This document shows, piece after piece, positions 11,291-48,233 of a DNA stretch of 48,555 nucleotides. The stretch lies in the NCBI GenBank assembly GCA_009782315.1, contig WRJH01000002.1:1-48555 (forward strand). The letters are read 5' to 3'. A program made the position numbers and the translations under genes. The notes below the pieces were generated by a model. The model saw only the letters and a program-made list of their open reading frames with translations, was not told the origin of the DNA and did not search any database. Source of the stretch: Alphaproteobacteria bacterium. GTDB taxonomy: Bacteria > Pseudomonadota > Alphaproteobacteria > Rs-D84. How positions within the stretch are numbered: position 1 is the stretch's first letter; each line of letters opens with the position of its first letter.

Positions 11291-11385
11291 ATCTAATAAC
11301 GCATCTGCTTGCGATTTGCTTTGGTCATGTATATCAAATACACTCCCGCCGCAAATCGCAGCGCATCTGCATCATTATCTTTAAT

Positions 11386-11413: not shown

Positions 11414-11423
11414 GCATCAGTTC

Positions 11424-25257: not shown

Positions 25258-25258
25258 G

Positions 25259-26055: not shown

Positions 26056-26060
26056 AATTT

Positions 26061-26092
26061 TATGCCTTATGCCCTATGCCTTATGCCCTTAT
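26061..26092. repeat. TTATGCC-type heptamer array upstream of rsmE
   Basis: tatgccttatgccctatgccttatgccctta. It is inverted relative to the array at 25861-25888 inside rsmE. Confidence 0.75.
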
Positions 26093-28350: not shown

Positions 28351-29112
28351 ATGAAAACCCGCCTTGCCAAATTTATTGCGGATTCCGGAATCGCTTCGCG
28401 CCGCGATGCGGAACGGATTATCGAATCCGGCGCCGTTTCGGTGAACGGCGAACGCGTGACGACGCCTGTATTTTTTGTCGGGCCGGACGATAATGTCGTC
28501 TTTCGCGGCAAACAGGTTTTACAACGTCGCGGAACGCGCGTAATCGCATTCAACAAGCCTGTGAGCGTCGTCACCAGCACGCGCGACCCGGATGGCCGCA
28601 AGACCGTTTACGATTGTCTGGCGCCCGAAATGCGCGGATTAAAATATATCGGGCGGCTGGATTTCAAAACGACCGGTCTTTTATTGCTGACCGACGACGG
28701 TGCGCTGGCCCGCCGGCTGACATTGCCGGAAACCGGCTTGGTGCGGACGTATGTCGCGAAACTGCGCCCGGATTTGAAGGCGTCCGCGTTTGCGCGAAAA
28801 TTACGCGAATTTTTATCGCCCCTGTCCGCGGACGATTCCATATTTGACACTTTGCGGCGCGGCGCGACGATTGACGGGGTAAAATATGCGCCGATGGATA
28901 TAGAATTGCTGTCGCGTTATCCGCTGTCCGTTCAAATTAAATTAACAGAAGGCAAAAAGAATGAAATCCGCATAGCGTTCGAACATATCGGCCTTCCGGT
29001 ATCCAAACTGCACCGCGAATCATACGGCCCCGTGGAATTGGGGGATTTGAAGCCGGGAGAGTGGAGGGAGTTGGCAGAAGACGAAGTAAAGAAATTAGCA
29101 ATGGGCAATTAG
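28351..29112 (+). CDS. rRNA pseudouridine synthase, RsuA/RluB family
   Basis: 253 aa. S4 domain RLAKFIADSGIASRRDAERII..G.V.VNG; catalytic GRLDFKTTGLLLLTDDG. Confidence 0.85.
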   Translation: MKTRLAKFIADSGIASRRDAERIIESGAVSVNGERVTTPVFFVGPDDNVVFRGKQVLQRRGTRVIAFNKPVSVVTSTRDPDGRKTVYDCLAPEMRGLKYIGRLDFKTTGLLLLTDDGALARRLTLPETGLVRTYVAKLRPDLKASAFARKLREFLSPLSADDSIFDTLRRGATIDGVKYAPMDIELLSRYPLSVQIKLTEGKKNEIRIAFEHIGLPVSKLHRESYGPVELGDLKPGEWRELAEDEVKKLAMGN

Positions 29113-29210
29113 CAATTATCAATTATTGTGCCGATATTCGCCGACAGTTATTTAATATAGATTGTAAGCGAAGCGAACACATTAATTGCTAATTGCCAAT
29201 TGATAATTAA
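29104..29210. repeat. Inverted pair of 7-nt-period arrays (GCAATTA / TAATTGC)
   Basis: ggcaatt agcaatt atcaatt attg ... cattaattgctaattgccaattgataattaa. Confidence 0.8.
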
Positions 29211-30455: not shown

Positions 30456-31213
30456 GAGTCGAATTTTTCTTTGCCGACGATAATCGTTCCATCGGAAAAT
30501 TCCGGCCTTGCCTGGGTTTTGATTTCCGTCCGCCAAAAGACGTCCCCGGTGCCGCCCGCTATCGCATACAAGTAACCGTCCGTGCCGACCACATAAGAAA
30601 CGCCCGTCCGGACAATGAACGGCGTGCCGGTGCCGACGCCCGAACACCAAACTTTCGCGCCCGTGTCCGAGTTGAGTTTGCAGAAAGAACCGCCCAATCC
30701 CCCCGCATAGACAAACCGGTCGCCGTCCGTCATTACGGGCGCGACGACGTCAAGTATGCTGGACCCGCCGGTCATCGCGCTGGATTTGAAAATGTCCGCG
30801 ACCCACACCAGGTTGCGCGTAGCCCTATCTATCTTTACGACTTCGCCGGTGGACAGTCCGGCGAATATGTATTTGTCCGTCACCGTCGGCCGTCTTTCGC
30901 CGGAAACATGGGCGGTCGTCGGAAAACCGGAAAATATCCGAATCCGTTCGTCCCCGGATATCCGCCATACTACATTGTTGGAATCCTGTATGTATTCCGC
31001 GGTCCGCACCCCCGGCCGCGATATTTCTTTCAGCGCGTTTTCCGGTACCGGTTTGTCCAGAACCACGATTCCGCCGGTATCGAACACGGAATGCCGTTCG
31101 CCCGGAAGTACCGGGTCCTTGGTGGCGCAGGCGCAAAGCGCTATAAGGCATAGGGCATAAGGCATAGGGCATATGCGCTTTGTAATCATTGAAAGTATTT
31201 TCATCAATCTCAT
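30434..31213 (-). CDS. PQQ-like beta-propeller lipoprotein, BamB-like (short)
   Basis: 259 aa with lipobox LIALCAC-A. Repeated G.v.a.d..tG...W motifs (KIDRATRNLVW, LNSDTGAKVW, AIAGGTGDVFW). It lies downstream of a yfgM-like gene. Confidence 0.6.
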   Translation of the reverse strand: MRLMKILSMITKRICPMPYALCLIALCACATKDPVLPGERHSVFDTGGIVVLDKPVPENALKEISRPGVRTAEYIQDSNNVVWRISGDERIRIFSGFPTTAHVSGERRPTVTDKYIFAGLSTGEVVKIDRATRNLVWVADIFKSSAMTGGSSILDVVAPVMTDGDRFVYAGGLGGSFCKLNSDTGAKVWCSGVGTGTPFIVRTGVSYVVGTDGYLYAIAGGTGDVFWRTEIKTQARPEFSDGTIIVGKEKFDSITGDMR

Positions 31214-31242
31214 ACTTTTATGCCTTATGCCCTATGCCTTGT
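31141..31242. repeat. Inverted GGCATAR arrays straddling the bamB-like start codon
   Basis: ctataaggcatagggcataaggcatagggcata (encodes the signal peptide PMPYALCL) and ttttatgccttatgccctatgccttg. There are 22 consecutive complementary nt, and the start codon 31211-31213 lies in the loop. Confidence 0.85.
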
Positions 31243-32022: not shown

Positions 32023-32955
32023 ATGAAAGTCAAAAGCGAAAAGAGACAAGACAACGATACAAGGGACGAAGCCGCCCTGCCGGCCGTCTGCAACCCCTTG
32101 CCCATTGTGACGTCCGACGACGCCAATCTGGAACGGTATATCCGGTCCGTCCAGAATTTTCCCATGCTTTCCGCCGAAGAGGAATACGAATACGCGCAAA
32201 GCTGGCGCCGGGCGGGCGACAAGTTCGCGGCCGAAAAACTGGTGTCCAGCCATCTGCGCATGGTCGTTTCCGTCGCGTACGATTTCAAGAATTACGGAAT
32301 TCCCGTCGCGGATTTGATTGCCAGCGGCAATTTGGGACTGATGCAGGCGCTTTCCAAATTCGACCCGGAACGCGGATTCCGGTTTTCAACGTACGCCATG
32401 TTCTGGATAAAGGCGGAGATTTACGACACCGTTCTGAACAACTGGTCTTTGGTAAAAATCGGAACGTCGGCGAATCAAAAGCGCGTGTTCTTTAACCTGG
32501 CGCGGGCCAAACGCGCGCTGGGCATAATGGACAACAATCTTTCCGACGACCAGACAAAGCAAATCGCGGAATATTTGGAAGTTCCGGAACTGGACGTGTC
32601 GCGCATGCAAAAACGCATCGCCGCGCGCGATTTGTCGCTGAACCGGCCGGCGCGCGACGAGTCCGATTCGCCGGACATGCTTTCCAATCTGGCGGATGAC
32701 GAAAATTCAATCGAAGACAAATTAGAACAATCGCAATTCAGAAATTTCGGGCGCGAGCTGTTGCAAAAACATCTGGCGGCGATGCCGGAACGCGACCGCG
32801 AAATTTTAATCGCAAGGCGCCTGTCCGACCCGGCGCCGACCCTGGAGCAATTATCCGAACGGCACAAGATTTCGCGCGAACGCGTCCGGCAGATAGAAGA
32901 GCGGGCGTTTGCAAAACTGCGGGACGCGATTCTGGCGGATGCCAACAAGTCATAA
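32023..32955 (+). CDS. rpoH: RNA polymerase sigma-32 factor RpoH
   Basis: 310 aa. Region 2 LVSSHLRMVVSVA, YAMFWIKAEI; RpoH-box-like QKRVFFNLARAK; region 4.2 ISRERVRQIEERA. Confidence 0.9.
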   Translation: MKVKSEKRQDNDTRDEAALPAVCNPLPIVTSDDANLERYIRSVQNFPMLSAEEEYEYAQSWRRAGDKFAAEKLVSSHLRMVVSVAYDFKNYGIPVADLIASGNLGLMQALSKFDPERGFRFSTYAMFWIKAEIYDTVLNNWSLVKIGTSANQKRVFFNLARAKRALGIMDNNLSDDQTKQIAEYLEVPELDVSRMQKRIAARDLSLNRPARDESDSPDMLSNLADDENSIEDKLEQSQFRNFGRELLQKHLAAMPERDREILIARRLSDPAPTLEQLSERHKISRERVRQIEERAFAKLRDAILADANKS

Positions 32956-33051
32956 GGCATAGGGCATAAGGCATAAATAATATGAGATTGATTAAACTAG
33001 TTTCAATAAGCACAAAACTGATATGCCTTATGCCCTATGCCTTATGCCTTG
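32949..33051. repeat. Inverted GGCATAR arrays straddling the porin-like start codon
   Basis: gtcataaggcatagggcataaggcataaat ... atatgccttatgccctatgccttatgccttg. The 24-nt core ataaggcatagggcataaggcata is the same as at 25261 and 31143. The right arm encodes CLMPYALCLA. Confidence 0.85.
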
Positions 33052-34805: not shown

Positions 34806-34991
34806 CCGTTTACCGTTTACCGTTTACCGTTTACCGCCTTTCGCGACTTTCGGCAAATGAATCACGGAATTTGCACTTTGTTAAATTCCACTGTATAATA
34901 AACACGAATAAACAAAAAAACAATCACAAAATTTTCGTTATTTGTTCCGCATTGCGCGGTGAACGGAAAACGGAAAACGGAAAACGGAAAT
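34806..34991. repeat. Inverted CCGTTTA / AACGGAA arrays enclosing the yip1-der divergent promoter region
   Basis: ccgttta x4 at 34806-34840 and ggtgaac ggaaaac ggaaaac ggaaaac ggaaata at 34958-34991. The der ATG is at 34992. Confidence 0.85.
34871..34899 (+). promoter_or_regulatory. Near-consensus promoter TTGCAC-17-TATAAT for der
   Basis: TTGCAC 34871-34876, TATAAT 34894-34899. Confidence 0.5.
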
Positions 34992-38380: not shown

Positions 38381-38671
38381 TTAATTCTTGTTCAATTGCG
38401 TCAGGAAATCGGGAAACGATTCGTCGTCGCCTTCGCTTTCTTCGGCATCCGCCGGTTCCGCCGGTTTCGGGCCGCCCCGCTGGCCGTCGATTTTATTCTG
38501 TTCATCGCTGACAATGCGGCCGTAATGTTCCGCCATCTGAAGCAGGCGTTCGCGTTCGATTTCGTCCGCCGTTGTGCGCGCCTGGTCCAGGTATTGTTTT
38601 CTTTTCTGGCGCCAGCGATGGCACCGCTGTATCATGATGCCGGTGGACGATTGATTTTTTTTATGCTGCAT
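38381..38671 (-). CDS. DUF4167-like small protein (alphaproteobacterial)
   Basis: 96 aa. Basic N-terminus, Y...A........R....Q.AEHY.RIV core and an acidic tail, as remembered for DUF4167. Confidence 0.55.
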   Translation of the reverse strand: MQHKKNQSSTGIMIQRCHRWRQKRKQYLDQARTTADEIERERLLQMAEHYGRIVSDEQNKIDGQRGGPKPAEPADAEESEGDDESFPDFLTQLNKN

Positions 38672-38782
38672 GAAATAAACCTGATTAAAGGCACTAGGGG
38701 ACGCCTAGGCACTGGTTGATATTATTAAATTTGGGAAATTAAATCCTTTTAACCCGTTTATTATATACCGCCTTAAAACCGT

Positions 38783-38811
38783 TTGCAATAATTTTTTTAT
38801 ACCGCTAGAAT
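38783..38811 (+). promoter_or_regulatory. Candidate promoter TTGCAA-17-TAGAAT abutting the first pilin-like gene
   Basis: TTGCAA 38783-38788, TAGAAT 38806-38811. The ATG at 38818 is 7 nt downstream of the -10, so the mRNA may be leaderless. Confidence 0.4.
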
Positions 38812-38817
38812 TCCTTT

Positions 38818-40266
38818 ATGGAGAGGGTTGGAAATTCATCGGGAAACTTTATGCTGCAGGCGCTTTTGGCGCTGTCGCTGGTTGTCGCGTTTATGCCCAT
38901 GCTGGTCAAAAAAATGTCGCGAACCGGTCTGGACGCCCAGATGAACGCCGCCGTATCCCAGATTAATTCGGTCATTCCCGCCGCGCGCGCCTTTGGGAAA
39001 GACAATGCGGACCGGTTTATGTACGGCAAGACGGAATACGAAGGCAAGGATTTTGCGGACGCGCTGGAGGCGTACGGTCTGCCCATCGGATTCGTGCCGC
39101 GCACCCCGTTCGGACAAAAAGTGACGATGGTCGTGACCAAAGACGAATTGGACACAATCGCGTGGATACGGATGTCCGGCGGAGGCGTCCGCGGGATAGA
39201 CAAGGCGGAAATCGCGCTGCGCTTAGGGTTCTGGGCGGGAGAGCCGGACGGCGACGAAATCCGCGGCGCGACGGGCGGATGGAATATCGACATGTCCGCG
39301 TTTTCATACAAACCCATGCCCGGCTCTGTTTACGTCCGCGTTCCCTTGGACGGCGAATTTTCAGACCTTTTGGCCGTGCGCGCGCGCACCCCTGAAAACA
39401 ACAGGATGCATGTCGCGCTGAACATGGGCGGCCGCGACATCAGGGGCGCGCGCGACATATCCGCGGTTGAAGGCAGGTTCAGAAATATCCTGGCCGGCGA
39501 TATGGTGCTTTCCGGGACGGAAGACGGAAGAAGACAGCGGCACAGATTCGGCAATATGAAAATCCGCCGCGCCGTATTCCAGACGAAAAACATGTCGAAC
39601 GCGCTGAACATATCGCGGGGGTCGCTTTCCGCCAAATACGTTTCCGCGCCGTCGGTGTCCAGATACGGCGATGCGGGCTCTTTAACCGGCGAAGTCGTAT
39701 CCGCCCACAGTTTCACCATGGAGGAGGGGCGCGGCGGATTTACCGGCCCGGGAATATGGGATGTGCAGGGCAACGCCGTATTCCACAACATAACGCTTTC
39801 CGTCGAGAGGGCCGAAATCGCCGGATTCATCAACGCGGCGCGCGGCCAGGACGTATTCATCAGCGAAGACGGGACGGATATCATCAACAATAAATCGGGG
39901 ATAGAAACAAACGTCGTCGCGGCGACGGCCGTCACGCTGCGCGACCAGACGTCCGCGCGCCTTTTGGCCGGGGGAACCGGCCCGATTATCGCGGACGTGC
40001 GGCCCGCCGGCGTGTCCGTTCTGCCCGATGCCGCCATCGCCGGAATAAACAACAACGATATAAAAATTATCCGATATCCGTTAGAGGCGTCCGACGTACA
40101 AACCGGATGCAATGATTTCATAGCCGACAATATGTACGGTCTGGGCGTGACGTATAACCGGGAATCGCTGGCCCAGAATATCGTTTGCAGATTTATGTTC
40201 TGGCAGCGGCTGGAACAAAGAATCAACATGAAGAAATGTCTGCTGGAAGGAAAGGAAAAATGCTAG
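38818..40266 (+). CDS. Large type IV pilin-like protein, paralog A (482 aa)
   Basis: The N-terminus MERVGNSSG/NFMLQALLALSLVVAFMPMLV looks like a class III (prepilin) signal with Gln at +5. The mid-region motif NRMHVALNMGGRDIRGARDI is shared with paralogs B and C. Confidence 0.65.
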   Translation: MERVGNSSGNFMLQALLALSLVVAFMPMLVKKMSRTGLDAQMNAAVSQINSVIPAARAFGKDNADRFMYGKTEYEGKDFADALEAYGLPIGFVPRTPFGQKVTMVVTKDELDTIAWIRMSGGGVRGIDKAEIALRLGFWAGEPDGDEIRGATGGWNIDMSAFSYKPMPGSVYVRVPLDGEFSDLLAVRARTPENNRMHVALNMGGRDIRGARDISAVEGRFRNILAGDMVLSGTEDGRRQRHRFGNMKIRRAVFQTKNMSNALNISRGSLSAKYVSAPSVSRYGDAGSLTGEVVSAHSFTMEEGRGGFTGPGIWDVQGNAVFHNITLSVERAEIAGFINAARGQDVFISEDGTDIINNKSGIETNVVAATAVTLRDQTSARLLAGGTGPIIADVRPAGVSVLPDAAIAGINNNDIKIIRYPLEASDVQTGCNDFIADNMYGLGVTYNRESLAQNIVCRFMFWQRLEQRINMKKCLLEGKEKC

Positions 40267-41489
40267 AACAGCGCGGAAGCAATCTTCTTGAAACATTGCT
40301 GGCCATCGGGTTGGTTTCGGCGATGGCGCCTTTTGTGTACAACCGCGTGGCCGAAGTCAGCCGCGATATAAAAGACGTCGCCATGGCGCGGCAGATAGCG
40401 GGGTGGAAATACCCCGTGTCCGGATTTATCCGAAGCAGTCAGATGAATTGGGAGGAAGACAAGCTGGTCGAATTGGACGCAAAGGAATTGCAAGAGATTG
40501 CAGGTAAGGAAATCAAAGGCGCTATAGCGATGACGCCCGCTTTCGCATTCATTGAAAAGTTCAGACATCTGGGCGGCGTCACGGTCGAGGCATATCTGTT
40601 GTTCCCAGGAAAATTCGACGGAATCCGAATGCATAAGATAGCGCGTCATCTGGGCGCGGACGCCGCCGTCGCGGGGCCGGAAAACACGGCGTTTTCCGTC
40701 GGCGGCGGATGGAGCATAGAGACGGAAATGATGCAGGAAAACGATTTGGTGTACCGGATACCGGTCGAATTGCCCCGGGATGATTCGTTCAATTTTATGC
40801 ACCGGGTGGATGCGGGCGACGAACGTCTGAACACCATGGAGCGCAATCTGATGATGGCGCGCAACAACGTGACGAACGCCGGCGCCGTGGGCGCGGGACT
40901 GCTTGATTCTAAGATGGTGTCCGGATGGTTCGCGGCCATAGAATCGTTCGCCGCGGACGAAGCAGTGTTTCCGGACGGCGCGAACATGGACGGAAGCAAC
41001 GCGTCGTTCGACGGAGTTCGCGTCATGGGCGACGTCGTCGGATTCAGAAACATCCAGGCGGATTTGTTCGAAGGCGGCGGCGGCGCGGGAAACTGGTCCG
41101 CCCAGGGCGATATAATCGCAAGCCGCGCCCAGATTATGGAATCGGTCCGCGTCGGGCGGACCATGACCGTAAAGTCGGCGACATCAAGGACCGTTTCCGG
41201 ATTCACAGGGATCAGCGCGTACAACCTGACCGTGCCGTTCGTGTCCGCGGACGAGATGCGCTTTGCGGACGGATTGGGTCTGGTCGTGTCAAACGAACTG
41301 TCGTCAAGTTATTCCGATGCGCCGCTGAAACTGGGCAACTGGATGTTAACATCGCAAAGCGCGGCGCCCGGATTTTCGTCGTTAACCGTTTCTAATGCGG
41401 GAAACATGGAGTTCAATGTGCCGGCGGAAAAATTCGGGGAAATAATGAAGGAAGGATGGAAGGATTCAGAGAGCATAGAGCAAAGATAA
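40260..41489 (+). CDS. Large type IV pilin-like protein, paralog B (409 aa)
   Basis: Internal ATG 40260 overlaps the stop of A (ATGCTAG). MLEQRG/SNLLETLLAIGLVSAMAPF is a short basic leader ending in Gly, with Glu at +5 and a hydrophobic helix. FMHRVDAGDERLNTMERNLMMARNNVTNAG. Confidence 0.7.
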   Translation: MLEQRGSNLLETLLAIGLVSAMAPFVYNRVAEVSRDIKDVAMARQIAGWKYPVSGFIRSSQMNWEEDKLVELDAKELQEIAGKEIKGAIAMTPAFAFIEKFRHLGGVTVEAYLLFPGKFDGIRMHKIARHLGADAAVAGPENTAFSVGGGWSIETEMMQENDLVYRIPVELPRDDSFNFMHRVDAGDERLNTMERNLMMARNNVTNAGAVGAGLLDSKMVSGWFAAIESFAADEAVFPDGANMDGSNASFDGVRVMGDVVGFRNIQADLFEGGGGAGNWSAQGDIIASRAQIMESVRVGRTMTVKSATSRTVSGFTGISAYNLTVPFVSADEMRFADGLGLVVSNELSSSYSDAPLKLGNWMLTSQSAAPGFSSLTVSNAGNMEFNVPAEKFGEIMKEGWKDSESIEQR

Positions 41490-41587
41490 TAGAGCATAGA
41501 TGGGGTCGTTACAGGTGTTGAATATAAAAAAATATTTTTCAAATTGTTCAAAGCATTTATGCTCTATGCTCTATGCTCTATGCTCTG
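41468..41587. repeat. Inverted GAGCATA arrays between pilin-like genes B and C
   Basis: agagagcatagagcaaagataatagagcatagatgg ... tttatgctctatgctctatgctctatgctctg. Confidence 0.85.
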
Positions 41588-42888
41588 CGCGTTCGCATAG
41601 CGAACGTGCGGAACGCGGCGGAATGATGGTAGAGCTGTTGCTGGCGCTGGCATTGGCGGCGGCCATGCTGCCCTTTCTGGTCGGACAAGAGAACGCCCGG
41701 GTGCGCCGCGCGGAAAATCTGAAAGCGGCCGCCGATATGGCCGCCGTCCGGTCCGCTTTGGAAAAATACATGGAGGAAAACAAAAGAGAGCTGTTGTCGT
41801 CCGTCGGCCGCAACGTTGTTCGCGTGTCTTTGGAAGATTTAGAGGAATTCGATTTGAACGTAGAATCATTGGGCAGGGCGGAACAGTTCCAGATGCGCGT
41901 CGTGAAAAGCGCCGACCGCGGCGGACGGTCCTTCCTGCAAGGAATCGTCGTTATGGACATAGACGGCGCGGCGCCCATTCGCACGCGCGAAATCGCGCTG
42001 GCCGCGGGCGCGGGCGCCGGCATGGCCGACGGCCCGGACACGTTCGGCGCGTTCGGAACATGGCGAACAAAAGCCAATATATGGAACGCAAGGTTCAGCG
42101 ACCGGTCGTTGCTGGACATGACCGCCGCCGTCGTATCCGGCGAAGAATTCCTGCGCCGTGTTTCGGGCGGCGGCGCGGACGACGCAACAATGCGGTCCGA
42201 CCTGGCCATGGGCGGGCACGATATAACGGGGGCGGGTTCAATATTCGCAGAGGCTTCTAAATTCACGGAAACCATAAACGCGAATACAGCGGGCGCCAAC
42301 CGTCTGGTTGTCGAAAACAGGCCCGCTTTGGATGGAAATATCGCCGTCGCCGGCGAAGCGCTGGTATCGGGCGCGCTTTCTTCCGATTCCCGCGGCATAG
42401 ATACGCAACGCATGACCGTGCCGGGACGCGCGCGGTTTTCTTCGGTCGCCGCGCTGCGGCTTTGGGCGGGCGATCTGACGCTGGGCGGATTTTCCGTGTC
42501 GGATATGGATGAAAAAGCTGCCAGTCTTTCGGTCGGAGGGTCCATAGACATGACCGGCGGACGCGTTACCGCAATGCAGATGTTCGTCGGCGGAGGCGGC
42601 AGCGTGACGCCGCGCCTGGTGGTTCGGGAAAGAATCGAAGACCCGAAAAACGCCGCGTATTTCTGGGACTTTTCCGCACGCGACGCGGTGTTTTTCGACG
42701 TAATGCTGCCCGCGTTGCCCCAGATGATGAGACAAGCCGCGCGCGGCGCCGACACAAGCACGTACGCATACCGGGCGATGTCCGCCGTATTCAATAACAA
42801 CAACGCGACTGTCGCGGATTACGCGCGCGCGCTTTCCGAAATAGAGCGAAGGATTTCGGCGGAATACGACAGGTTGAATTTGGAATAA
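41500..42888 (+). CDS. Large type IV pilin-like protein, paralog C (start uncertain: 41500, 41566 or 41623)
   Basis: ..AERG/GMMVELLLALALAAAMLPFLV has Glu at +5 after a Gly. ATMRSDLAMGGHDITGAG motif. The first about 40 codons of the ORF are heptamer-repeat DNA. Confidence 0.65.
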   Translation: MGSLQVLNIKKYFSNCSKHLCSMLYALCSARSHSERAERGGMMVELLLALALAAAMLPFLVGQENARVRRAENLKAAADMAAVRSALEKYMEENKRELLSSVGRNVVRVSLEDLEEFDLNVESLGRAEQFQMRVVKSADRGGRSFLQGIVVMDIDGAAPIRTREIALAAGAGAGMADGPDTFGAFGTWRTKANIWNARFSDRSLLDMTAAVVSGEEFLRRVSGGGADDATMRSDLAMGGHDITGAGSIFAEASKFTETINANTAGANRLVVENRPALDGNIAVAGEALVSGALSSDSRGIDTQRMTVPGRARFSSVAALRLWAGDLTLGGFSVSDMDEKAASLSVGGSIDMTGGRVTAMQMFVGGGGSVTPRLVVRERIEDPKNAAYFWDFSARDAVFFDVMLPALPQMMRQAARGADTSTYAYRAMSAVFNNNNATVADYARALSEIERRISAEYDRLNLE

Positions 42889-42900
42889 ATTTCCTTTACA

Positions 42901-43383
42901 ATGCGCGTTGATATGAAAATCAAATGCCCTTTTTGCAGAACGGATTACGCGGCGGACATCCCCGGCGGCAAGCGCGCGGAATGCGCGCTGTGCGGACATG
43001 CGTGGATGCCGCCCAGACACCGCGGCCCGATTCTGATATGGGGTGCGGTCCTTTTTGCCGCCGTGTTTGCAGGGATGGCCGCGGTCAGATATATGCCGAC
43101 AAAAAAACCGAAAGCGCCCCTGGTCATCGAAATGACCGGCGTCCAAAAGACGGCCGAAGAAGCATGGGTCGTATCGGGCCGCGTCAGAAATTTGTCCGGA
43201 AAAATTTACGGAATTCCGGATATGGCGCTGGTCGTGAAAAATAACGCGGGCGACGAGGTTCTGCGCCAGAAAGTGCGCCCGCCGGTGCCGATTCTGGATA
43301 TAGGAGAGGCGGCGGAATTCGCCCACACTATCGCCGATTTTCCGCCGGCTGCGAAAAAACTGGCGGTGGAGTTTATAAAGTAG
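42901..43383 (+). CDS. Zinc-ribbon (MJ0042-type) + TM + DUF3426-like protein, ZitP-like
   Basis: 160 aa. KCPFCRTDY..(16)..CALCGHAW is a CxxC..CxxC ribbon. TM helix ILIWGAVLFAAVFAGMAAV. The C-terminal beta-rich domain has VSGRVRNLSG..VVKNNAGDEVL..LDIGEAAEF. Confidence 0.65.
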   Translation: MRVDMKIKCPFCRTDYAADIPGGKRAECALCGHAWMPPRHRGPILIWGAVLFAAVFAGMAAVRYMPTKKPKAPLVIEMTGVQKTAEEAWVVSGRVRNLSGKIYGIPDMALVVKNNAGDEVLRQKVRPPVPILDIGEAAEFAHTIADFPPAAKKLAVEFIK

Positions 43384-43509
43384 AGCATAGATAATAGAGC
43401 ATAGAGTATAACAATGGAGAATATACAAATGATGACATTAAAAAATAAATCTATGAAATTTTTCAAAAACATATATCTATGCTCTATGCTCTATGCTCTA
43501 TGCTCTATT
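43381..43509. repeat. Inverted GAGCATA arrays straddling the start of the next exported-protein gene
   Basis: tagagcatagataatagagcatagagtata ... atctatgctctatgctctatgctctatgctctatt. The start codons 43414/43429/43453 lie in the loop. The right arm encodes LCSMLYALCSI. Confidence 0.85.
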
Positions 43510-43932
43510 TGCGCGCACGCGCAATCCCTGCCGCCGGCGACCATCACAATGTTCGCGACCAGCGCGGATTGGGAGGCAATCACCGGCATGCGCATGTCCG
43601 AATACCGCGTGACTTTCGGCCGCGACAGGTCCGTATCGACAATTGGAACGGAACTGTATTTTCTGGACGCGTTTCCTTGTTTCGGCCAGGCCGAGGCCGC
43701 GCGCGCATGGGTCGCCCCCGCGACATCGTTCCAGATGGACAACGACGCGCGCATGCGCATCGTGTGCGTGTATCCGCCGAAAGAATTACAGTTCGCTTTC
43801 CGCGAAGTGCGGCGCGACGCAGTTCAGGGCGTAACCACGGGAATCGCCGTATGTCCGGCAGCGCACAGCGGACGGAATTTGACCGTGCGCCTGAACGAAT
43901 GCGAAAGAACAGACTGGAATGACATCAAATAA
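43429..43932 (+). CDS. Small exported protein, unknown function
   Basis: ORF 43414-43932. The preferred start is ATG 43429 (RBS GGAGA 8 nt upstream). Signal peptide ..FFKNIYLCSMLYALCSICAHA/QS. It overlaps the rluD start by 14 nt. Confidence 0.55.
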   Translation: MMTLKNKSMKFFKNIYLCSMLYALCSICAHAQSLPPATITMFATSADWEAITGMRMSEYRVTFGRDRSVSTIGTELYFLDAFPCFGQAEAARAWVAPATSFQMDNDARMRIVCVYPPKELQFAFREVRRDAVQGVTTGIAVCPAAHSGRNLTVRLNECERTDWNDIK

Positions 43933-44887
43933 TAAATTTATTTTTATCGTTGAAGACGGGGATGCGGGAATTCGCGTCGACAAGTTTGTCGCGTCCAAAA
44001 TTCCGGAATATTCGCGGTCGGAGATTCAGAAATTCCAAATCACGAAAAACGGCAATGAAATAAAACTTTCCGATAAAGTAAAAGTCGGCGAAGAATACGA
44101 AGTAATTATTCCAGAAAAAAAACCGGTAAACGTTAAACGGAAAACGGTAAACGAAACGATGTCGTTAGACATCGTTTATGAAGACGCCGACATCATCGTA
44201 ATAAACAAGCCGCGCGGAATAGCCATGTATCCCGGCGCCGGACGCGAAGATGGAACATTGGTCCAGGCGGTCCTTGCGCACACAGAATTGTCGTCCATCG
44301 GTGCGGACGGAATGCGCCCCGGCGTCGTGCACCGTCTGGACAAAGATACCAGCGGCGTTATAGTTTTTGCAAAAACCGACGCGGCGCACCGCGTGCTGTC
44401 CCATGTTTTCTCCGAACACAATCTGGTGCGGAAATACATCGCGTTCGTATGGGGCGTTCCGAACTGGCTGGGTGCCGACATATCCGGAAACATCGGACGG
44501 TCGACGCGCAACAGACAAAAAATGACAATGCTGAAAACCGGCGGCAAGCCGGCGAAGACACACGCCGAAGTCATCAACGTCTGGCCGCGGACCGGAATTT
44601 CGGAATTGCGGTGCACTTTGGAAACCGGGCGGACGCACCAGATTCGCGTGCATTTGTCGGCGCACGGTTTTCCGGTTTTATGCGACCCGATTTACGGTCG
44701 CGGACAGACAAGGCTGGGCAGCGTCAAGAACCCGGAATTGTTGGAATTTATCCGGGCGGGCGGCGGCCAGATGCTGCACGCCGAAGTCTTGGAACTTTCC
44801 CATCCGATTACGGGCGAAATGTTGAAATTCAAGGCGAAACTTCCCGACGATATGCGTGAATTGAAAGAGATTTTGAATGATATGTAG
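43919..44887 (+). CDS. rluD: 23S rRNA pseudouridine synthase RluD (RluA family)
   Basis: 322 aa. S4 domain; catalytic HRLDKDTSGVIVFAKT; GRTHQIRVHL. Confidence 0.9.
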   Translation: MTSNNKFIFIVEDGDAGIRVDKFVASKIPEYSRSEIQKFQITKNGNEIKLSDKVKVGEEYEVIIPEKKPVNVKRKTVNETMSLDIVYEDADIIVINKPRGIAMYPGAGREDGTLVQAVLAHTELSSIGADGMRPGVVHRLDKDTSGVIVFAKTDAAHRVLSHVFSEHNLVRKYIAFVWGVPNWLGADISGNIGRSTRNRQKMTMLKTGGKPAKTHAEVINVWPRTGISELRCTLETGRTHQIRVHLSAHGFPVLCDPIYGRGQTRLGSVKNPELLEFIRAGGGQMLHAEVLELSHPITGEMLKFKAKLPDDMRELKEILNDM

Positions 44888-45176: not shown

Positions 45177-48100
45177 ATGTCAAAAGTTTCCAAAAAACTT
45201 GTTGTTTTTGCGACGCTTGCGTTTGGGCTTTGCGGCATTGCCGCGGCGCAGCTGGTCGGACCAAATCCGAACCCGACCGCGCGGCCGGCCGTTGTCGCCG
45301 CGAATGTCGGCACGATTCAAGACCGCGGGCCGTCAATGCGCCAGCTGCGGCCGCTGACCACCACGGGCACAACGGGCACCAATACCCCGGGCGAATACAA
45401 CGGAACATGCGACAATCCCGTGCCGGAACAATTGGATGCTCTGCGCTGCACCATGCGCTATATGTCGTGCCTGAAAATGGAAATGGTCTGCGGTGAAAAT
45501 TTCGAATTGTGCGACACCGAAGAAAGATTCAAAGCCGGACGCATGTATTGCGAATCCGAACTGGTCAGATGTCCGGCGGACGTCATAAACCACATGTTCG
45601 GACTGGACGGCACCGACGGATATGCAAAAGTTTCATGGACCGACGACAACGCGTCTGCCAACCGCGCGCTTTGTGACGGAGAATGGAAAGTCGTTCGGCG
45701 CAGCCTTTTGCGCGGCGGCACAACGATACAGCTTTCCGATATCAAGCTGCGCTTTAGCACCAACGACGGTGCGAACCAGAAAAGCGCATTGGGCCGTGAA
45801 ATCTGGGCCGGCGCGCTGTGGGCGGCCAGTCATGCGGTCACAACATGCGAACGCGTCGCGAACGCGTGCCTGACCCGCGCATGCCAGGACAGTCCGCATA
45901 AATGCCTTGACATTGACCGCACGACCATGCAGCTGGATTCTGTAAACAACATACTGAACGACGCCCTGGAGAAATTGCCAGTGGGCGGCAGCGCCACAAA
46001 TCCGACCAACCTGGCGCGGCTGGGGATACGCAACGCGCTGTCCGAATTACAGGCGCTTTCCGACCCGACGTCGGTGTTCTTTGACAACCAACGGGGTTCT
46101 GTGGATGTCGACCAGACATTGGTAAAGAATTACGCGAACAACATGTTGTTGGACGCAACGGCCGTGAACAAATATTTAGAGGCGGAATGCAAAATTGAAA
46201 TCGGTTCCAACCGGTTCTGCTATATGACCGTGAATCCGTCGAACGGCGTGAATATCATGAACCAGCTGGACATAACCGACCCGTTGGAACAATACATGAC
46301 GTACCAACAGGTGATGAGCGGCACGATGAACCGCAAAAACTGGGTCCAGACGCAGGCCATAGAATGGCTGGCCGCGGCGGTCGCCAGTTCGTACGCGCGC
46401 TGTACTATGGCGACGGAAACATGCATAAAAGATTCTTGCGGCCGCGGGTCTATGGCCATGTGTTATGGAATGGCGCGCGATGCCCAGGGTCAGGTTAAAT
46501 TATGGACGGGCGCCAGCAACGAACTGATAGAAACTTTCTGCAAACCGCAAATCAACGACAACCAGTATTGCCGGAATCTGGCGCCAAACAACGGCAGCCT
46601 GTGGCCGACCATATGGAACACAAGCGATGGCAAGGGTTTGGCGTTGCGGCTTTCAACCCGGTTGCAAAGCACTTTCTCGCAGACCGGATTGAACAAAATG
46701 GAACAGACGTGCCAAAACGCCGCAAAGCAATGCGTGCGACGCGAATGCGGGGACGATTTTACCGGATGCCTGATACGCGGCGTGGATGAAAACAGCGGCC
46801 GGAACCAGGGCGTGTTCGGCACAAACAATGTGATTTCGGGCGTTCGCGCCGGCGGATTTTCCCGCGAAATGGCCCAGGGACTTTGCATAGGCACGGTTAA
46901 AAACATCCAGATGTGCCGCGATTGGTTCGATTTGAACTATGCATTGAAAGCGGACGGATGGGTAGGACCGGAAGGAGATAGCTCTGGCGTTTATAATTGG
47001 AGCAGCTTTAACTGGGATTCTTTGAATTCGGCAAAGGCCGGGGAATCGGCGCGCGACGCGTGGGCCGGCATGTGCACTTCGGCCGTGACGTATTTCAGGG
47101 ACGTTACCGTGGAACTTGAACAAGACGAGGATGGCAAGTATACCGGGAATTATACCACCACGCCGAACGACGAATTGTCGATGCAATCGTCGGACAATGC
47201 GAATTGCGCGTTGAACGAAAAGGCGATATTCAACAACCTTATCGACGAAGTCGCGATGGAGGCACAGCAGAGATTGGTGTACCAGGCGAACGCCGCAAAG
47301 AACGCGTGCGAAGCGCGCAACCGCGTTGCCGCCGCCCAGGATAATTTTATGTGGGCCGCTGTGGATTCAAGTTTTGATGATTGGGGTACCTATGCCGTAA
47401 AGGGGCTTGCCACGGATAAAGTAGAACGGACGGCGTATGTGTGGGGCGGGTTCTGCGCGGTGCGCGTGTCAATGGTTGCGACGAATACCACGTTGGAAAA
47501 GCACTTTACGAATAACACCCGGTATTTCTCTGTGGGCGATACGATTATGTGCGGTTCATGGCTGACCGATTCCGATATGAAGGCAATTATAAAGACGCTT
47601 GAAAGTGAGGTAAAGAAACCGGGAACCAATGTTCAGACCGCCGCATGGACCGGCGCGATTATCGCCGCAGTTGGCGGGAATATGGCGCATAATTCGATAA
47701 TGAACACCATGGAAAAGAATAAAACAAATGATCAAATGGTATGCGATGTTAAAAATGCAGGTTGCAATAAGTGCACAGATAGTACTAAAGCACACGTGGT
47801 GGTTGAACTTAATGATAAAAAAATAACTGTTAGTGGATGTAAAACCGAAGACGAAGCCGAAGACGAAGCCGACGACATAACTAAATTTAGTGTCGCTAAT
47901 TATAGCGATACTAAAGTATGTGAAGCACAAGTTAAAAGTTTTAAAGAAAGTAAAACGTGTGTAGAATCTGCGTCTTTGAAAGAGCGCGGCCTGATTGGTT
48001 TTAACGATGGCAGGGGCGGGTTTGCATGGGGTAATCTCGCAACCACGGTCGGTTCCGGTGTGATAGGTTATATGGCGACAAAGAGAATAGCGGAAGAACG

Positions 48101-48233
48101 TCGCGATGCGTTGCACCGTGAACGCAAAGACGCGGCCGTTGCGGAATTCATGGATTCCATAGGTTCCGAAATCCATTGCATAGTGGGCGGAAAGAACGCC
48201 GGCCGATTCGGCGATTTGATAGAAATCAAATAA
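45177..48233 (+). CDS. Large cysteine-rich exported protein with C-terminal hydrophobic segments (1018 aa), unknown function
   Basis: RBS GAAGAGGGAAAAT-ATG. Signal peptide MSKVSKKLVVFATLAFGLCGIAAA/Q. About 39 Cys, including four C-x6-C-x4/6-C-x6/7-C modules. Two hydrophobic stretches lie near the C-terminus. Confidence 0.7.
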   Translation: MSKVSKKLVVFATLAFGLCGIAAAQLVGPNPNPTARPAVVAANVGTIQDRGPSMRQLRPLTTTGTTGTNTPGEYNGTCDNPVPEQLDALRCTMRYMSCLKMEMVCGENFELCDTEERFKAGRMYCESELVRCPADVINHMFGLDGTDGYAKVSWTDDNASANRALCDGEWKVVRRSLLRGGTTIQLSDIKLRFSTNDGANQKSALGREIWAGALWAASHAVTTCERVANACLTRACQDSPHKCLDIDRTTMQLDSVNNILNDALEKLPVGGSATNPTNLARLGIRNALSELQALSDPTSVFFDNQRGSVDVDQTLVKNYANNMLLDATAVNKYLEAECKIEIGSNRFCYMTVNPSNGVNIMNQLDITDPLEQYMTYQQVMSGTMNRKNWVQTQAIEWLAAAVASSYARCTMATETCIKDSCGRGSMAMCYGMARDAQGQVKLWTGASNELIETFCKPQINDNQYCRNLAPNNGSLWPTIWNTSDGKGLALRLSTRLQSTFSQTGLNKMEQTCQNAAKQCVRRECGDDFTGCLIRGVDENSGRNQGVFGTNNVISGVRAGGFSREMAQGLCIGTVKNIQMCRDWFDLNYALKADGWVGPEGDSSGVYNWSSFNWDSLNSAKAGESARDAWAGMCTSAVTYFRDVTVELEQDEDGKYTGNYTTTPNDELSMQSSDNANCALNEKAIFNNLIDEVAMEAQQRLVYQANAAKNACEARNRVAAAQDNFMWAAVDSSFDDWGTYAVKGLATDKVERTAYVWGGFCAVRVSMVATNTTLEKHFTNNTRYFSVGDTIMCGSWLTDSDMKAIIKTLESEVKKPGTNVQTAAWTGAIIAAVGGNMAHNSIMNTMEKNKTNDQMVCDVKNAGCNKCTDSTKAHVVVELNDKKITVSGCKTEDEAEDEADDITKFSVANYSDTKVCEAQVKSFKESKTCVESASLKERGLIGFNDGRGGFAWGNLATTVGSGVIGYMATKRIAEERRDALHRERKDAAVAEFMDSIGSEIHCIVGGKNAGRFGDLIEIK

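What the first reader, a model, noticed from the sequence alone, without database searches (positions are those of the whole stretch)
38783..43932. Operon of three giant pilin-like paralogs plus a ZitP-like zinc-ribbon protein, with no pilus assembly genes nearby
- **The three proteins:** Consecutive genes encode 410-480-aa proteins whose N-termini look like class III (prepilin) signals. Each has a short leader ending in Gly followed by a hydrophobic helix, with Glu at +5 in B (G/SNLLE) and C (G/GMMVE) and Gln at +5 in A (G/NFMLQ). Loss of Glu5 is typical of tip-located minor pilins such as GspK.
- **Shared motif:** All three share a central motif: NRMHVALNMGGRDIRGA in A, ERLNTMERNLMMARNNVTNAG in B, and ATMRSDLAMGGHDITGAG in C. 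From memory this resembles the N-terminal constant region of PilV/shufflon type IVb minor pilin adhesins and a phage tail-fibre motif. After it come divergent Gly/Ser/Val-rich C-terminal halves.
- **Operon structure:** A and B overlap (ATGCTAG). C is followed 12 nt later by a zinc-ribbon/TM/DUF3426 protein, then a small exported protein that overlaps rluD.
- **What is missing:** No ATPase, platform protein, secretin or prepilin peptidase is in the window.
- **Interpretation:** The set could be a tip or adhesin complex for a pilus encoded elsewhere. It could also be an undescribed surface filament module linked to a polar-targeting factor.
Basis: partly seen in the sequence, partly recalled or inferred. 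Interest (0 to 1): 0.8.

Follow-up and report, generated by a model that had tools for sequence, protein, structure and literature searches.

The report
Three PilV-like pilus tip proteins
Three neighbouring genes in a tiny-genome gut alphaproteobacterium encode diverged relatives of PilV, the tip adhesin of plasmid "thin" type IVb pili. They sit in a conserved operon with a ZitP-like pilus-assembly factor, and probably form the tip of a pilus whose motor and main subunit are encoded elsewhere in the genome.

Summary
Window 38818-43932 (+) carries five co-oriented, tightly packed genes:
- A (482 aa), B (409 aa) and C (about 440 aa).
- A zinc-ribbon/TM/DUF3426 protein.
- A small exported Cys-rich protein that overlaps rluD.

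**Paralogy and family.** A, B and C are paralogs over their N-terminal ~250 residues (hhalign E 1e-17 to 1e-20). Each is homologous to the constant region of PilV (Shufflon_N), the minor pilin and adhesin of IncI/PAPI-1 type IVb pili. hhalign probabilities are 98.7% for C, 96.8% for A and 96.3% for B. Their size is normal for PilV, so they are not "giant".

**Pilin signal.** Family members with an intact N-terminus have Gly-1, residue 5 (Glu in B and C, Gln in A) and Pro18.

**Host and conservation.** The host belongs to the order Rs-D84 (Ca. Enterousia and relatives), whose genomes are under 1 Mb. The block is syntenic in 76-80 of the 80 species loci examined.

**Assembly genes.** None lie on this contig. 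Relatives carry a scattered type IVb set:
- A PilS-type major pilin 2 kb upstream of A in 60 of 80 species.
- A conserved PilO/ATPase/platform operon.

**Verdict.** This is a diverged, shufflon-less, three-paralog PilV module for a chromosomal type IVb pilus, a new variant of a known kind. No peptidase or secretin was found, and the fold searches were inconclusive.

The parts
38818..40266 (+). Gene A: PilV-like minor pilin paralog without Glu5 (leader MERVGNSSG|NFMLQ). It has four conserved C-terminal Cys. It is the candidate tip-most subunit.
   Evidence: ORF. Family of 109 homologs, all in uncultured Alphaproteobacteria. G-1/Q5 in 94/108 members and P18 in 92 of those 94. hhalign to PilV 96.8%, E 2.1e-10. 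AF2 pLDDT 78, helix 11-62, head residues 40-180 with pLDDT >90.
40260..41489 (+). Gene B: PilV-like minor pilin paralog with Glu5 (leader MLEQRG|SNLLE). Its start overlaps the A stop (ATGCTAG).
   Evidence: G-1/E5 in 23/25 members and P18 in 22 of those 23. hhalign to PilV 96.3%, E 1.8e-9. hhalign to A 3.3e-17 and to C 3.9e-20.
41566..42888 (+). Gene C: PilV-like minor pilin paralog with Glu5 (…RG|GMMVE). The ORF opens at 41500; the probable start is ATG 41566 inside a heptamer array.
   Evidence: Homologs hit Pfam Shufflon_N at 26.5-28.2 bits against a cutoff of 27.5. tblastn of family member P0243 hits pilV in 760 plasmids. hhalign to PilV 98.7%, E 2.9e-16. AF2 helix 2-58.
39400..39450 (+). 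Central PilV-type motif in A (NRMHVALNMGGRDIRGA).
40821..40883 (+). Central PilV-type motif in B (ERLNTMERNLMMARNNVTNAG).
42184..42237 (+). Central PilV-type motif in C (ATMRSDLAMGGHDITGAG).
42901..43383 (+). ZitP-like bitopic protein: CxxC...CxxC zinc ribbon, one TM helix, and a short periplasmic DUF3426-like domain.
   Evidence: Window copy: Zn_ribbon_4 E 5e-4, DUF3426 E 0.22. Family: four invariant Cys, Zn_ribbon_4 in 27/29 and DUF3426 in 14/29 orthologs. Present in 76/80 loci.
43414..43932 (+). Small exported protein: Sec signal peptide plus a ~125-aa domain with four invariant Cys. It overlaps rluD by 14 nt. Function unknown.
   Evidence: No Pfam, NCBIfam or PDB match. Present in 76/80 loci.
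43919..44887 (+). rluD (23S rRNA pseudouridine synthase). It is a housekeeping gene that closes the co-oriented block and is probably not functionally part of the module.
38381..38671 (-). DUF4167 small protein, the divergently transcribed conserved neighbour (79/80 loci). Its role in the module is unknown.
41470..41586 (.). Inverted pair of heptamer arrays, (AGAGCAT)n ... (TATGCTC)n, at the B/C junction. It forms a strong hairpin.
   Evidence: RNA fold -53.9 kcal/mol, z -7.5.
43381..43508 (.). Second inverted heptamer-array pair, at the junction between the zinc-ribbon gene and the small-protein gene. Its second arm encodes the signal-peptide core.
   Evidence: Relative L006 has a pair at the same junction with a different heptamer.

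Best explanation
A, B and C are three fixed, diverged paralogs of PilV, the large minor pilin and adhesin of PilS/PilV-type (R64, IncI2, PAPI-1) type IVb pili.

**Shown**
- They share with PilV, and with each other, the prepilin-type leader, the long N-terminal helix, the head region and the LYR...LNxMxxxLxMGGxDIxN motif. Their C-terminal halves differ.
- The operon is part of the conserved chromosomal core of Rs-D84 bacteria.
- Relatives encode a PilS-type major pilin, a PilO-like protein, a T2SSE ATPase and a T2SSF platform at other loci.

**Inferred mechanism**
1. The three proteins insert into the inner membrane by their N-terminal helices.
2. A prepilin peptidase cleaves them after the conserved Gly.
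3. They then form the priming or tip complex from which the ATPase and platform polymerise the PilS-type pilin.
4. A has Gln instead of Glu5 and so lacks the charge that pairs with the next subunit's N-terminus. It would sit at the very top, with B and C beneath.
5. The divergent beta-rich C-terminal halves are then exposed at the tip as adhesins for a partner cell or host surface.
6. This replaces the DNA-inversion (shufflon) diversity of plasmid PilV with three permanent variants.

**Accessory genes (inferred)**
- The co-operonic ZitP-like protein would help place or license the machine from the membrane. In Caulobacter the periplasmic DUF3426 of ZitP is needed for pilus biogenesis.
- The small exported Cys-rich protein is an accessory of unknown role. 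It may be a tip-bound secreted partner like CofJ or TcpF.
For: **Paralogy and homology to PilV**
- Paralogy: hhalign E 1.9e-18, 3.3e-17 and 3.9e-20.
- Pfam Shufflon_N at about threshold in C-family members.
- 760 plasmid pilV genes hit by tblastn with family member P0243.
- Family HMMs against three PilVs score 14-38 bits, collinear from the leader to the motif.
- hhalign to PilV: 98.7%, 96.8% and 96.3%.

**Pilin features**
- Same size as PilV.
- Gly-1, Glu5 or Gln5, and Pro18 in family members with an intact N-terminus.
- The C-family profile matches the type IV pilin N-terminus of geopilins, E 0.004.
- AF2 predicts a 52-57-residue N-terminal helix followed by an alpha/beta head.

**Conservation**
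- A-B-C-ZnR-small-rluD is syntenic in 76-80 of 80 species loci, and 268 stretches of the GTDB genome collection (one genome per species) encode a relative of A.

**Pilus genes in relatives**
- A PilS-type pilin (PF08805 plus N_methyl, MxxxSG|RSLIE, 152 aa) lies 2.1 kb upstream of A in 60/80 loci.
- A PilO(PF06864)/orf/T2SSE/T2SSF operon is next to it in L053. The ATPase is found on 174 metagenome contigs; all 80 fetched carry it, with the platform in 75, the middle ORF in 74 and PilO in 66. These include termite-gut samples that also yielded the window's closest relatives.

**Literature**
- PilV is the minor pilin and adhesin of conjugative T4b pili (PMC9045228, PMC5430464, PMC5297154).
- CofB forms a trimeric initiator at the T4b tip and binds an operon-encoded secreted protein (PMC6048534).
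- The ZitP DUF3426 domain is required for pilus biogenesis (PMC5182063).
Against: - No prepilin peptidase or secretin was found in any of the ~3 Mb of related sequence held.
- No pilus assembly gene or major pilin lies on the window's own 59-kb contig, so the machinery is inferred from relatives.
- The window's own A, B and C give no Pfam or NCBIfam hit.
- Foldseek found no significant match to any pilin. TcpA scored E 2, PilS E 0.8 and GspI E 3.
- B and C lack the C-terminal disulfide typical of many pilins.
- The heterotrimer, the tip position of A and the adhesin role are analogies, not results.
- The one published genome survey of Rs-D84 does not report pili for this order (PMC12306168).
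Confidence: 0.68

Rival explanations
1. The three proteins are relics of a conjugative (IncI/PAPI-1-like) thin-pilus system on an integrated mobile element. They would still serve mating-pair formation for DNA transfer rather than a lineage-specific attachment role.
For: - In every annotated case retrieved, PilV sits in a T4b pil operon next to an I-type T4SS on a plasmid.
- The window holds a VirD4/TraG-type coupling protein at 26113-28347.
Against: - The block lies between housekeeping genes (DUF4167, dnaX, der, rluD) with the same order in 76-80 of 80 species loci. It is vertically inherited core, not an island.
- No Rci recombinase, sfx-type shufflon repeats, relaxase or Dot/Icm-like genes lie in the window.
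- The ATPase/platform operon sits between lpxK-lpxC and fabD-fabG-gyrB in L162.
- GC content of the region (0.545-0.569) is close to the rest of the window.
Confidence: 0.1
2. A, B and C are not assembled into a filament. Their pilin-like N-termini act as uncleaved signal anchors, and the proteins form an inner-membrane or periplasmic envelope complex, or a short pseudopilus like a T2SS piston, together with the ZitP-like protein.
For: - No peptidase or secretin was detected in held sequences.
- Fold searches were inconclusive.
- A lacks Glu5.
- The operon partner is a membrane-anchored periplasmic protein.
Against: - A buried Glu at position 5 (all 23 B and all 107 C members that match the N-terminal pattern) and Gly at -1 are hard to explain for a plain anchor.
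- The proteins are homologous to a known pilus-incorporated minor pilin.
- They co-occur in the clade with a major pilin and an extension ATPase and platform.
Confidence: 0.15
3. The similarity is compositional or restricted to a hydrophobic helix. On this view the three genes are unrelated lineage-specific surface proteins, or phage tail-fibre-like receptor-binding proteins.
For: - Pairwise BLASTP is weak or not significant.
- BFVD fold hits are weakly enriched in tail and tail-fibre proteins, E 0.004-1.
- A has a weak Phage_depo_C hit, E 0.087.
Against: - Profile alignments are collinear over 190-340 columns. They reach well beyond the helix and include the conserved motif about 200 residues in.
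- No phage genes are nearby.
- None of the viral fold hits reaches E 0.001, and their TM-scores are about 0.1.
Confidence: 0.04

Closest known systems
PilV, the shufflon-encoded minor pilin and adhesin of IncI1/IncI2 thin pili (R64, TP114) and PilV2 of the PAPI-1 conjugative type IVb pilus (Pfam PF04917 Shufflon_N)
   Same: - Homologous N-terminal ~230-250 residues, including the RG| leader, Glu5 and the LYR...LNxMxxxLxMGxNDINN motif.
- Same overall size (409-482 aa against 425-467 aa).
- Variable C-terminal half.
- Accompanied in the clade by PilS-type pilin, PilO, a PilQ-like ATPase and a PilR-like platform.
   Different: - Three separate fixed genes instead of one gene with invertible 3' segments.
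- No Rci recombinase or sfx repeats.
- One paralog (A) has Gln5.
- Chromosomal core genes scattered among housekeeping genes rather than a plasmid pil operon beside an I-type T4SS.
- Only borderline or no Pfam score.
- Co-operonic with a ZitP-like protein.
CofB / TcpB / LngB, the large minor pilins of enteric type IVb pili (PMC6048534, PMC5207764)
   Same: - A large (~50 kDa) minor pilin made of a pilin-like N-domain plus beta-rich C-terminal domains.
- CofB forms a trimeric initiator complex at the pilus tip.
- An operon-encoded secreted protein (CofJ, TcpF) docks on it. This is a possible parallel to three PilV paralogs plus the small exported protein.
   Different: - No detectable sequence or fold match.
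- CofB is a homotrimer of one gene product. Here a heterotrimer is only conjectured.
GspK-GspI-GspJ tip complex of the type II secretion pseudopilus (own knowledge: Korotkov and Hol 2008)
   Same: - Three different minor (pseudo)pilins are encoded together.
- The largest, tip-most one (GspK) lacks Glu5, as A does.
   Different: - No homology was shown. GspI gave only a Foldseek E of 3, and a C homolog gave NCBIfam GspK E 0.03.
- It belongs to a different machine, and the subunits are much smaller.
ZitP of Caulobacter crescentus (PMC5182063)
   Same: An N-terminal CxxC...CxxC zinc ribbon, one TM helix and a periplasmic DUF3426. In Caulobacter that periplasmic domain is required for pilus biogenesis.
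   Different: - About 160-170 aa here against 311 aa.
- Best Pfam model is Zn_ribbon_4 rather than Zn_ribbon_5.
- ZitP serves a Tad/Cpa (type IVc) pilus through CpaM and binds PopZ. Neither partner was examined here.

Membership tests
Type IV pilin / class III signal peptide proteins | Short, basic leader ending in Gly, directly followed by a ~20-residue hydrophobic segment | tested here: met
   A MERVGNSSG|NFMLQALLALSLVVAFMP, B MLEQRG|SNLLETLLAIGLVSAMAP, C ...ERAERG|GMMVELLLALALAAAMLP. Gly-1 is present in every family member with an intact N-terminus. Median leader length is 6 (A), 15 (B) and 16 (C) residues.
Type IV pilin / class III signal peptide proteins | Glu at position +5 of the mature protein | tested here: met
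   Met for B (23/23) and C (107/107). Not met for A, which has Gln5 in 94/94 members. Loss of Glu5 is known for tip-most subunits such as GspK (own knowledge).
Type IV pilin / class III signal peptide proteins | Long (~53 aa) N-terminal alpha-helix packed on an antiparallel beta-sheet head (alpha/beta roll) | tested here: inconclusive
   AF2 gives helices 11-62 (A) and 2-58 (C), followed by an alpha/beta domain with pLDDT >90 in A. Foldseek against PDB gave no significant pilin match: TcpA E 2 with TM 0.41 on the target, PilS E 0.8. The models could not be cropped to the head domain.
Type IV pilin / class III signal peptide proteins | Cleavage and N-methylation by an A24 prepilin peptidase encoded in the genome | not testable with these tools
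   No peptidase homolog was found among 16,838 ORFs from all held loci. Whole genomes could not be fetched.
Type IV pilin / class III signal peptide proteins | Pfam N_methyl / TIGR02532 match | tested here: not met
   No hit for the window's A, B or C. One of 26 C-family members hits N_methyl at E 0.0066. The C-family profile matches geopilin N-termini at E 0.004.
PilV / Shufflon_N (PF04917) | Sequence match to the N-terminal constant region | tested here: met
   The window's C has no Pfam hit at E<=1, but homologs score 26.5-28.2 bits against a cutoff of 27.5. Profile-profile to three plasmid PilVs: C 98.7%, A 96.8%, B 96.3%. tblastn of P0243 hits 760 pilV genes. Membership is at superfamily level; A and B are outside the Pfam model's reach.
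PilV / Shufflon_N (PF04917) | Shufflon: invertible 3' segments bounded by sfx repeats, plus Rci recombinase | tested here: not met
   The only strong inverted repeats in 38700-44000 are the heptamer arrays at gene junctions. No recombinase lies in the window.
PilV / Shufflon_N (PF04917) | Encoded at the end of a type IVb pil operon (pilS, pilU upstream) beside an I-type conjugative T4SS | tested here: not met
   The canonical context is seen in plasmids. Here the neighbours are DUF4167, a ZitP-like gene and rluD. In 60/80 relatives a PilS-type pilin lies 2 kb away on the other strand.
ZitP-like (zinc ribbon + TM + DUF3426) | N-terminal CxxC-x(n)-CxxC zinc ribbon of the MJ0042/Zn_ribbon_4/5 type | tested here: met
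   C9, C12, C28 and C31 are invariant. Zn_ribbon_4 hits 27/29 orthologs, best E 8.7e-8. Window copy: E 5e-4, and TIGR02098 E 0.0097.
ZitP-like (zinc ribbon + TM + DUF3426) | Periplasmic DUF3426 domain after one TM helix | tested here: met
   DUF3426 hits 14/29 orthologs, best E 1.3e-6. The window copy is weak at E 0.22. A hydrophobic segment at residues ~43-65 is visible in the alignment.
ZitP-like (zinc ribbon + TM + DUF3426) | PopZ binding, polar localisation and recruitment of CpaM | not testable with these tools
   Needs experiments. PopZ and CpaM homologs were not searched for.

The most novel reading that the evidence does not exclude
Rs-D84 bacteria have genomes under 1 Mb, no glycolytic entry enzymes and few transporters. 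In these organisms a conjugation-type (R64-like) type IVb pilus has been domesticated into the essential organelle for attaching to, and perhaps feeding on, a partner cell. On this reading:
- The three PilV paralogs form a heterotrimeric tip, with A as the Glu5-less cap, that replaces shufflon switching.
- The ZitP-like protein positions the pilus.
- The tip presents the small exported Cys-rich protein as CofB presents CofJ.
- The pilus genes have been scattered through the core genome, as T4SS genes are in Rickettsiales.
Probability: 0.2. Interest if true: 0.7.

Novelty: new variant of a known kind. Interest (0 to 1): 0.5.

Why it matters
Rs-D84/Enterousia bacteria are widespread, uncultured gut organisms of animals, humans and termites. 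They have very small genomes and are thought to depend on a partner (PMC12306168). How they contact that partner is unknown, and the published survey reports no pili for them.

In the species loci examined they keep this five-gene block: three PilV-like proteins, a ZitP-like factor and an exported protein. Many relatives also carry a PilS pilin gene and a PilO/ATPase/platform operon. That points to a concrete, testable attachment device.

For pilus biology the finding offers three things:
- A natural case where PilV diversity is fixed as paralogs instead of generated by DNA inversion.
- A Glu5-less PilV relative.
- A genetic link between a ZitP-type factor and a type IVb rather than Tad pilus.

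Tried and rejected
- **Direct domain scans.** Pfam and NCBIfam scans of A, B and C gave nothing significant.
- **PDB sequence searches.** The three family profiles gave only a marginal geopilin N-terminus hit for C. A and B gave nothing.
- **Fold searches.** Foldseek of both AF2 models against PDB, and of A against BFVD, gave no hit at E<=0.001. Pilins and phage tail proteins appear only among weak hits. The "tail-fibre" idea therefore stays untested rather than supported.
- **Shufflon signature.** Rejected. The only inverted repeats are heptamer arrays at gene junctions.
- **Prepilin peptidase and other canonical T4b parts.** Plasmid PilU, PilP and PilO2 were used as queries over all held ORFs, including jackhmmer for the peptidase. 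Nothing was found.
- **Phase variation.** I first read the (ATGCTCT)n repeats in the 5' regions of C and the small protein as phase-variable repeats like the Neisseria opa CTCTT repeats. I dropped this idea for two reasons. The arrays occur as inverted pairs at many intergenic sites with different heptamers. The array in C also supplies an in-frame ATG whatever its copy number.
- **VirB6 guess.** I guessed that the tandem polytopic membrane proteins downstream on the contig were VirB6-like. Pfam gave no support.
- **Exhaustive profile search with family A.** It found 185 representative proteins in 1.84 billion. The five sampled distant ones that carry a name are hypothetical proteins from uncultured (Alpha)proteobacteria, so no better-characterised relative than PilV emerged.

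Full report
**What is there.**
On the + strand between 38818 and 44887 lie six tightly packed genes:
- A: 38818-40266, 482 aa.
- B: 40260-41489, 409 aa. Its ATG overlaps the A stop in ATGCTAG.
- C: ORF from 41500, probable start ATG 41566, ends 42888.
- A 160-aa zinc-ribbon/TM protein, 42901-43383, starting 12 nt after C.
- A 167-172-aa exported protein, 43414/43429-43932.
- rluD, 43919-44887, overlapping the previous gene by 14 nt.

A DUF4167 gene (38381-38671) is transcribed divergently upstream. The rest of the window is ordinary chromosomal core: recF, sspB, accBC, TolC/HlyD, pnp, rlmN, lptD, lptFG, nusA, infB, rsmE, a lone VirD4/TraG-type coupling protein, bamB, rpoH, der and lpoB. No pilus ATPase, platform, secretin, peptidase or small pilin is in the window or in the other ~10 kb of its 59-kb contig. 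Two points need correcting: the start of B is ATG 40260, although the ORF itself first opens at TTG 40185, and the likely start of C is 41566.

**Are the three proteins related, and do they carry a pilin signal?**
- Pairwise BLASTP is weak: A-B E 0.002, the other two pairs not significant.
- Each protein heads a well-populated family. A has 109 homologs, B 32 and C 123, and every named one comes from an uncultured Alphaproteobacteria or "Rickettsiales" MAG.
- Profile-profile comparison of these families is decisive: A-C E 1.9e-18 over 234 columns, A-B 3.3e-17 over 344, B-C 3.9e-20 over 245. The proteins are thus paralogs over the N-terminal ~250 residues, and A and B over more.
- In family members with an intact N-terminus the start is a short leader ending in Gly, then a hydrophobic helix in one shared register. 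Residue +5 is Gln in A (94/94) and Glu in B (23/23) and C (107/107). Pro is at +18 in 92/94, 22/23 and 107/107. The pattern search required the G and E/Q, so these counts describe the members that carry the pattern (94/108, 23/25, 107/119).
- A conserved acidic residue inside a membrane helix is what pilin assembly needs. A plain anchor would not keep it.
- The C-family profile also matches the N-terminus of solved geopilins, E 0.004.
- AlphaFold2 with deep alignments predicts a 52-57-residue N-terminal helix followed by an alpha/beta domain, then beta-rich and helical C-terminal parts. For A, pLDDT is 78 overall and above 90 for residues 40-180. For C it is 77.
- Foldseek on the full-length models gave no significant hit in PDB. 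TcpA, PilS, C. difficile PilW and GspI appear only at E 0.8-3. The pilin fold of the head domain is therefore plausible but not shown.

**What family?**
- The window's own proteins hit nothing in Pfam or NCBIfam. Several C-family members hit Shufflon_N (PF04917) at 26.5-28.2 bits against a cutoff of 27.5, over model positions 11-271.
- NCBI names two homologs "shufflon system ... pilus tip adhesin PilV".
- A tblastn of C-family member P0243 against PLSDB hit 760 plasmids. Fourteen of the 15 listed hits lie on an annotated pilV gene, and one has no feature listed under the match.
- I fetched three PilVs, from Acetobacter, Yersinia and Pseudomonas plasmids, with their canonical context of pilin, peptidase, ATPase, platform and I-type T4SS genes.
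- Family HMMs score these PilVs at 31-38 bits (C), 19-25 (A) and 14-20 (B). The matches are collinear from the leader to about residue 240.
- hhalign gives 98.7% (E 2.9e-16), 96.8% (2.1e-10) and 96.3% (1.8e-9).
- The three PilVs are 425-467 aa, so A, B and C are normal in size for this kind of minor pilin.
- Two things that define plasmid PilV are absent. There is no shufflon (no sfx-type repeats, no Rci recombinase) and no pil operon context.

**Whose genome, and how conserved?**
- A scan of one genome per GTDB species found 268 stretches that encode a relative of A. The records are uncultured gut Alphaproteobacteria from termites, ruminants, horses, mice, humans and chickens, many named Candidatus Enterousia. 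One complete chromosome is only 716 kb.
- The literature places Enterousia in the order Rs-D84. This order has genomes under 1 Mb, lacks respiration and many biosynthetic pathways, and is presumed partner-dependent. The same paper reports type IV pili for another lineage and none for Rs-D84 (PMC12306168).
- In the 80 loci fetched, the order DUF4167(-) | A-B-C-ZnR-small-rluD(+) is kept. A is in 80, DUF4167 in 79, B in 79, C in 78, and ZnR, small and rluD in 76 each. At least most of the losses fall where a contig ends.
- An exhaustive HMM search with the A profile found only 185 cluster representatives in 1.84 billion. Fifty-three score at or below 1e-30. The tail matches only the N-terminal ~200 positions, and the sampled members that carry a name are hypothetical proteins of uncultured (Alpha)proteobacteria.

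**Is there a pilus for them?**
Yes in relatives.
- Using the plasmid pil proteins as queries, I found a 152-aa ORF 2.1 kb upstream of A, on the other strand between dnaX and an OmpA-family gene, in 60 of 80 species. It starts MxxxSG|RSLIEV and matches Pfam PilS (24.1 bits against a cutoff of 22) and N_methyl.
- In locus L053 the same strand continues with a PilO-type accessory protein (PF06864), a 234-aa coiled-coil protein, a T2SSE ATPase (E 4e-62) and a T2SSF platform. The platform matches plasmid PilR at E 3.6e-46.
- A metagenome scan with that ATPase returned 174 contigs at 73-91% identity. They include contigs of 590-935 kb and termite-gut samples that also produced the window's closest relatives.
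- Of the 80 loci fetched, all carry the ATPase, 75 the platform, 74 the middle ORF and 66 the PilO-like gene. The shortfalls are mainly on short contigs.
- In termite contig L162 the operon sits between lpxK-lpxC and fabD-fabG-gyrB.

The clade therefore has a PilS/PilV-type (R64-like) type IVb pilus gene set, broken into at least three loci inside the core genome. A secretin and a prepilin peptidase were not found in any held sequence. Whole genomes could not be retrieved, so their absence is not established.

**The operon partners.**
- The 160-aa protein has four invariant Cys (CxxC...CxxC), one hydrophobic segment and a C-terminal domain. Zn_ribbon_4 matches 27/29 orthologs and DUF3426 matches 14/29.
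- This is the architecture of Caulobacter ZitP, whose periplasmic DUF3426 is required for Cpa pilus biogenesis (PMC5182063). The protein here is half the length of ZitP, and the pilus is of another subtype.
- The last gene encodes a Sec-exported ~125-aa domain with four invariant Cys and no detectable relatives.
- In enteric type IVb pili the large minor pilin CofB forms a trimeric initiator at the tip and docks an operon-encoded secreted protein, CofJ (PMC6048534). That offers a working model for three PilV paralogs plus a small exported protein, by analogy only.

**Most likely mechanism.**
- Shown: homology to PilV, the pilin-type N-termini, conservation of the block, and pilus genes in the clade.
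- Inferred: A, B and C are processed minor pilins that nucleate and cap a PilS-type filament. A (Gln5) is the top subunit, and the divergent C-terminal halves act as fixed alternative adhesins. The ZitP-like protein helps the machine assemble.

I put 0.68 on the core statement, that these are PilV-type minor pilins of a type IVb pilus acting at initiation or the tip. I put much less on the heterotrimer geometry. Rivals are a conjugation relic on a mobile element (0.10), uncleaved membrane-anchored envelope proteins or a pseudopilus (0.15), and unrelated or phage-like proteins (0.04).

**Novelty and interest.**
This is not a new kind of system. It is a diverged, three-paralog, shufflon-less version of PilV in the core genome of a reduced-genome symbiont lineage, coupled to a ZitP-like gene. 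Most database entries call these proteins hypothetical. The value is mainly biological: it is a concrete candidate for the attachment organelle of Rs-D84 bacteria. Interest is 0.5.

**Seen in passing.**
The window is peppered with period-7 tandem arrays, 33-38 in 48.5 kb depending on the score cut-off. At least eight form strict inverted pairs that flank 44-171-nt spacers at gene boundaries. Two of these pairs sit inside this operon, and the B/C one folds at -53.9 kcal/mol with z -7.5. Details are listed under the things noticed.

Noticed in passing
window, many sites: 4140-4226, 16876-16957, 20969-21103, 25254-25361, 25860-26092, 29093-29208, 31143-31240, 32947-33050, 34806-34990, 41470-41586, 43381-43508: The window holds 33-38 tandem arrays of 7-nt units, 4-7 copies each. 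They lie mostly between genes. At least 8 form strict inverted pairs: (heptamer)n, a spacer of 44-171 nt (AT-rich at the B/C junction), then (reverse-complement heptamer)n. The heptamer differs from site to site. The B/C-junction pair folds as RNA at -53.9 kcal/mol (z -7.5). Second arms often run into the next gene and encode 'MLYALCS'-type leader or signal-peptide cores. Such arrays are common in some relatives (L003, L006, L007, L011, L012) but absent from most Enterousia loci and from the plasmid controls. L006 has a pair at the same ZnR/small-protein junction with a different heptamer. No explanation was found.
   Followed up: partly
L053 1219-7878 (-); L010 7422-7877 (-); L162 8030-12671 (+); 60 of loci L001-L080 at about 7.4-7.9 kb: Rs-D84 relatives carry a dispersed type IVb pilus gene set. 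A 152-aa PilS-type major pilin lies between dnaX and an OmpA-family gene. A separate PilO-like/orf/T2SSE ATPase/T2SSF platform operon is embedded among lpx and fab genes. The published Rs-D84 genome survey does not report pili for this order.
   Followed up: yes
window 26113-28347 (+): A lone VirD4/TraG-type type IV secretion coupling protein (T4SS-DNA_transf E 9e-49) sits between rsmE and a pseudouridine synthase gene. No other T4SS gene is nearby.
   Followed up: no
window 45177-48233 (+): A 1018-aa Cys-rich protein with a signal peptide and a C-terminal hydrophobic segment lies just downstream of rluD. It has no Pfam or NCBIfam match. A homolog was found in 55 of 80 relatives' loci, downstream of rluD in nearly all, so it may be another surface protein linked to the block.
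   Followed up: partly
L081 15905-22858 (the source contig beyond the window's 3' end): Five polytopic membrane proteins of 393-502 aa lie next to one another, four of them in tandem on one strand. Most have signal-peptide-like N-termini. None has a Pfam match, and their function is unknown.
   Followed up: partly
L008, L010, L036, L038, L050 (titled 'uncultured Muribaculaceae bacterium') and L040 (titled 'Bacteroides fragilis'): Public records that carry this alphaproteobacterial block are labelled as Bacteroidota. They include a 716,531-bp 'chromosome' (OZ246409.1). These are probably mislabelled or mis-binned Rs-D84 genomes.
   Followed up: no
window 11431-11486 (+): Rfam reports a partial tRNA-like match (34.9 bits, model positions 8-63) directly after the ORF 10966-11433 and 115 nt before tRNA-Val. 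ARAGORN does not call it. It may be a tRNA remnant.
   Followed up: no
window 38381-38671 (-): A DUF4167 small protein is divergently transcribed from A and keeps this position in 79 of 80 species loci. It may share a regulatory region with the operon.
   Followed up: no
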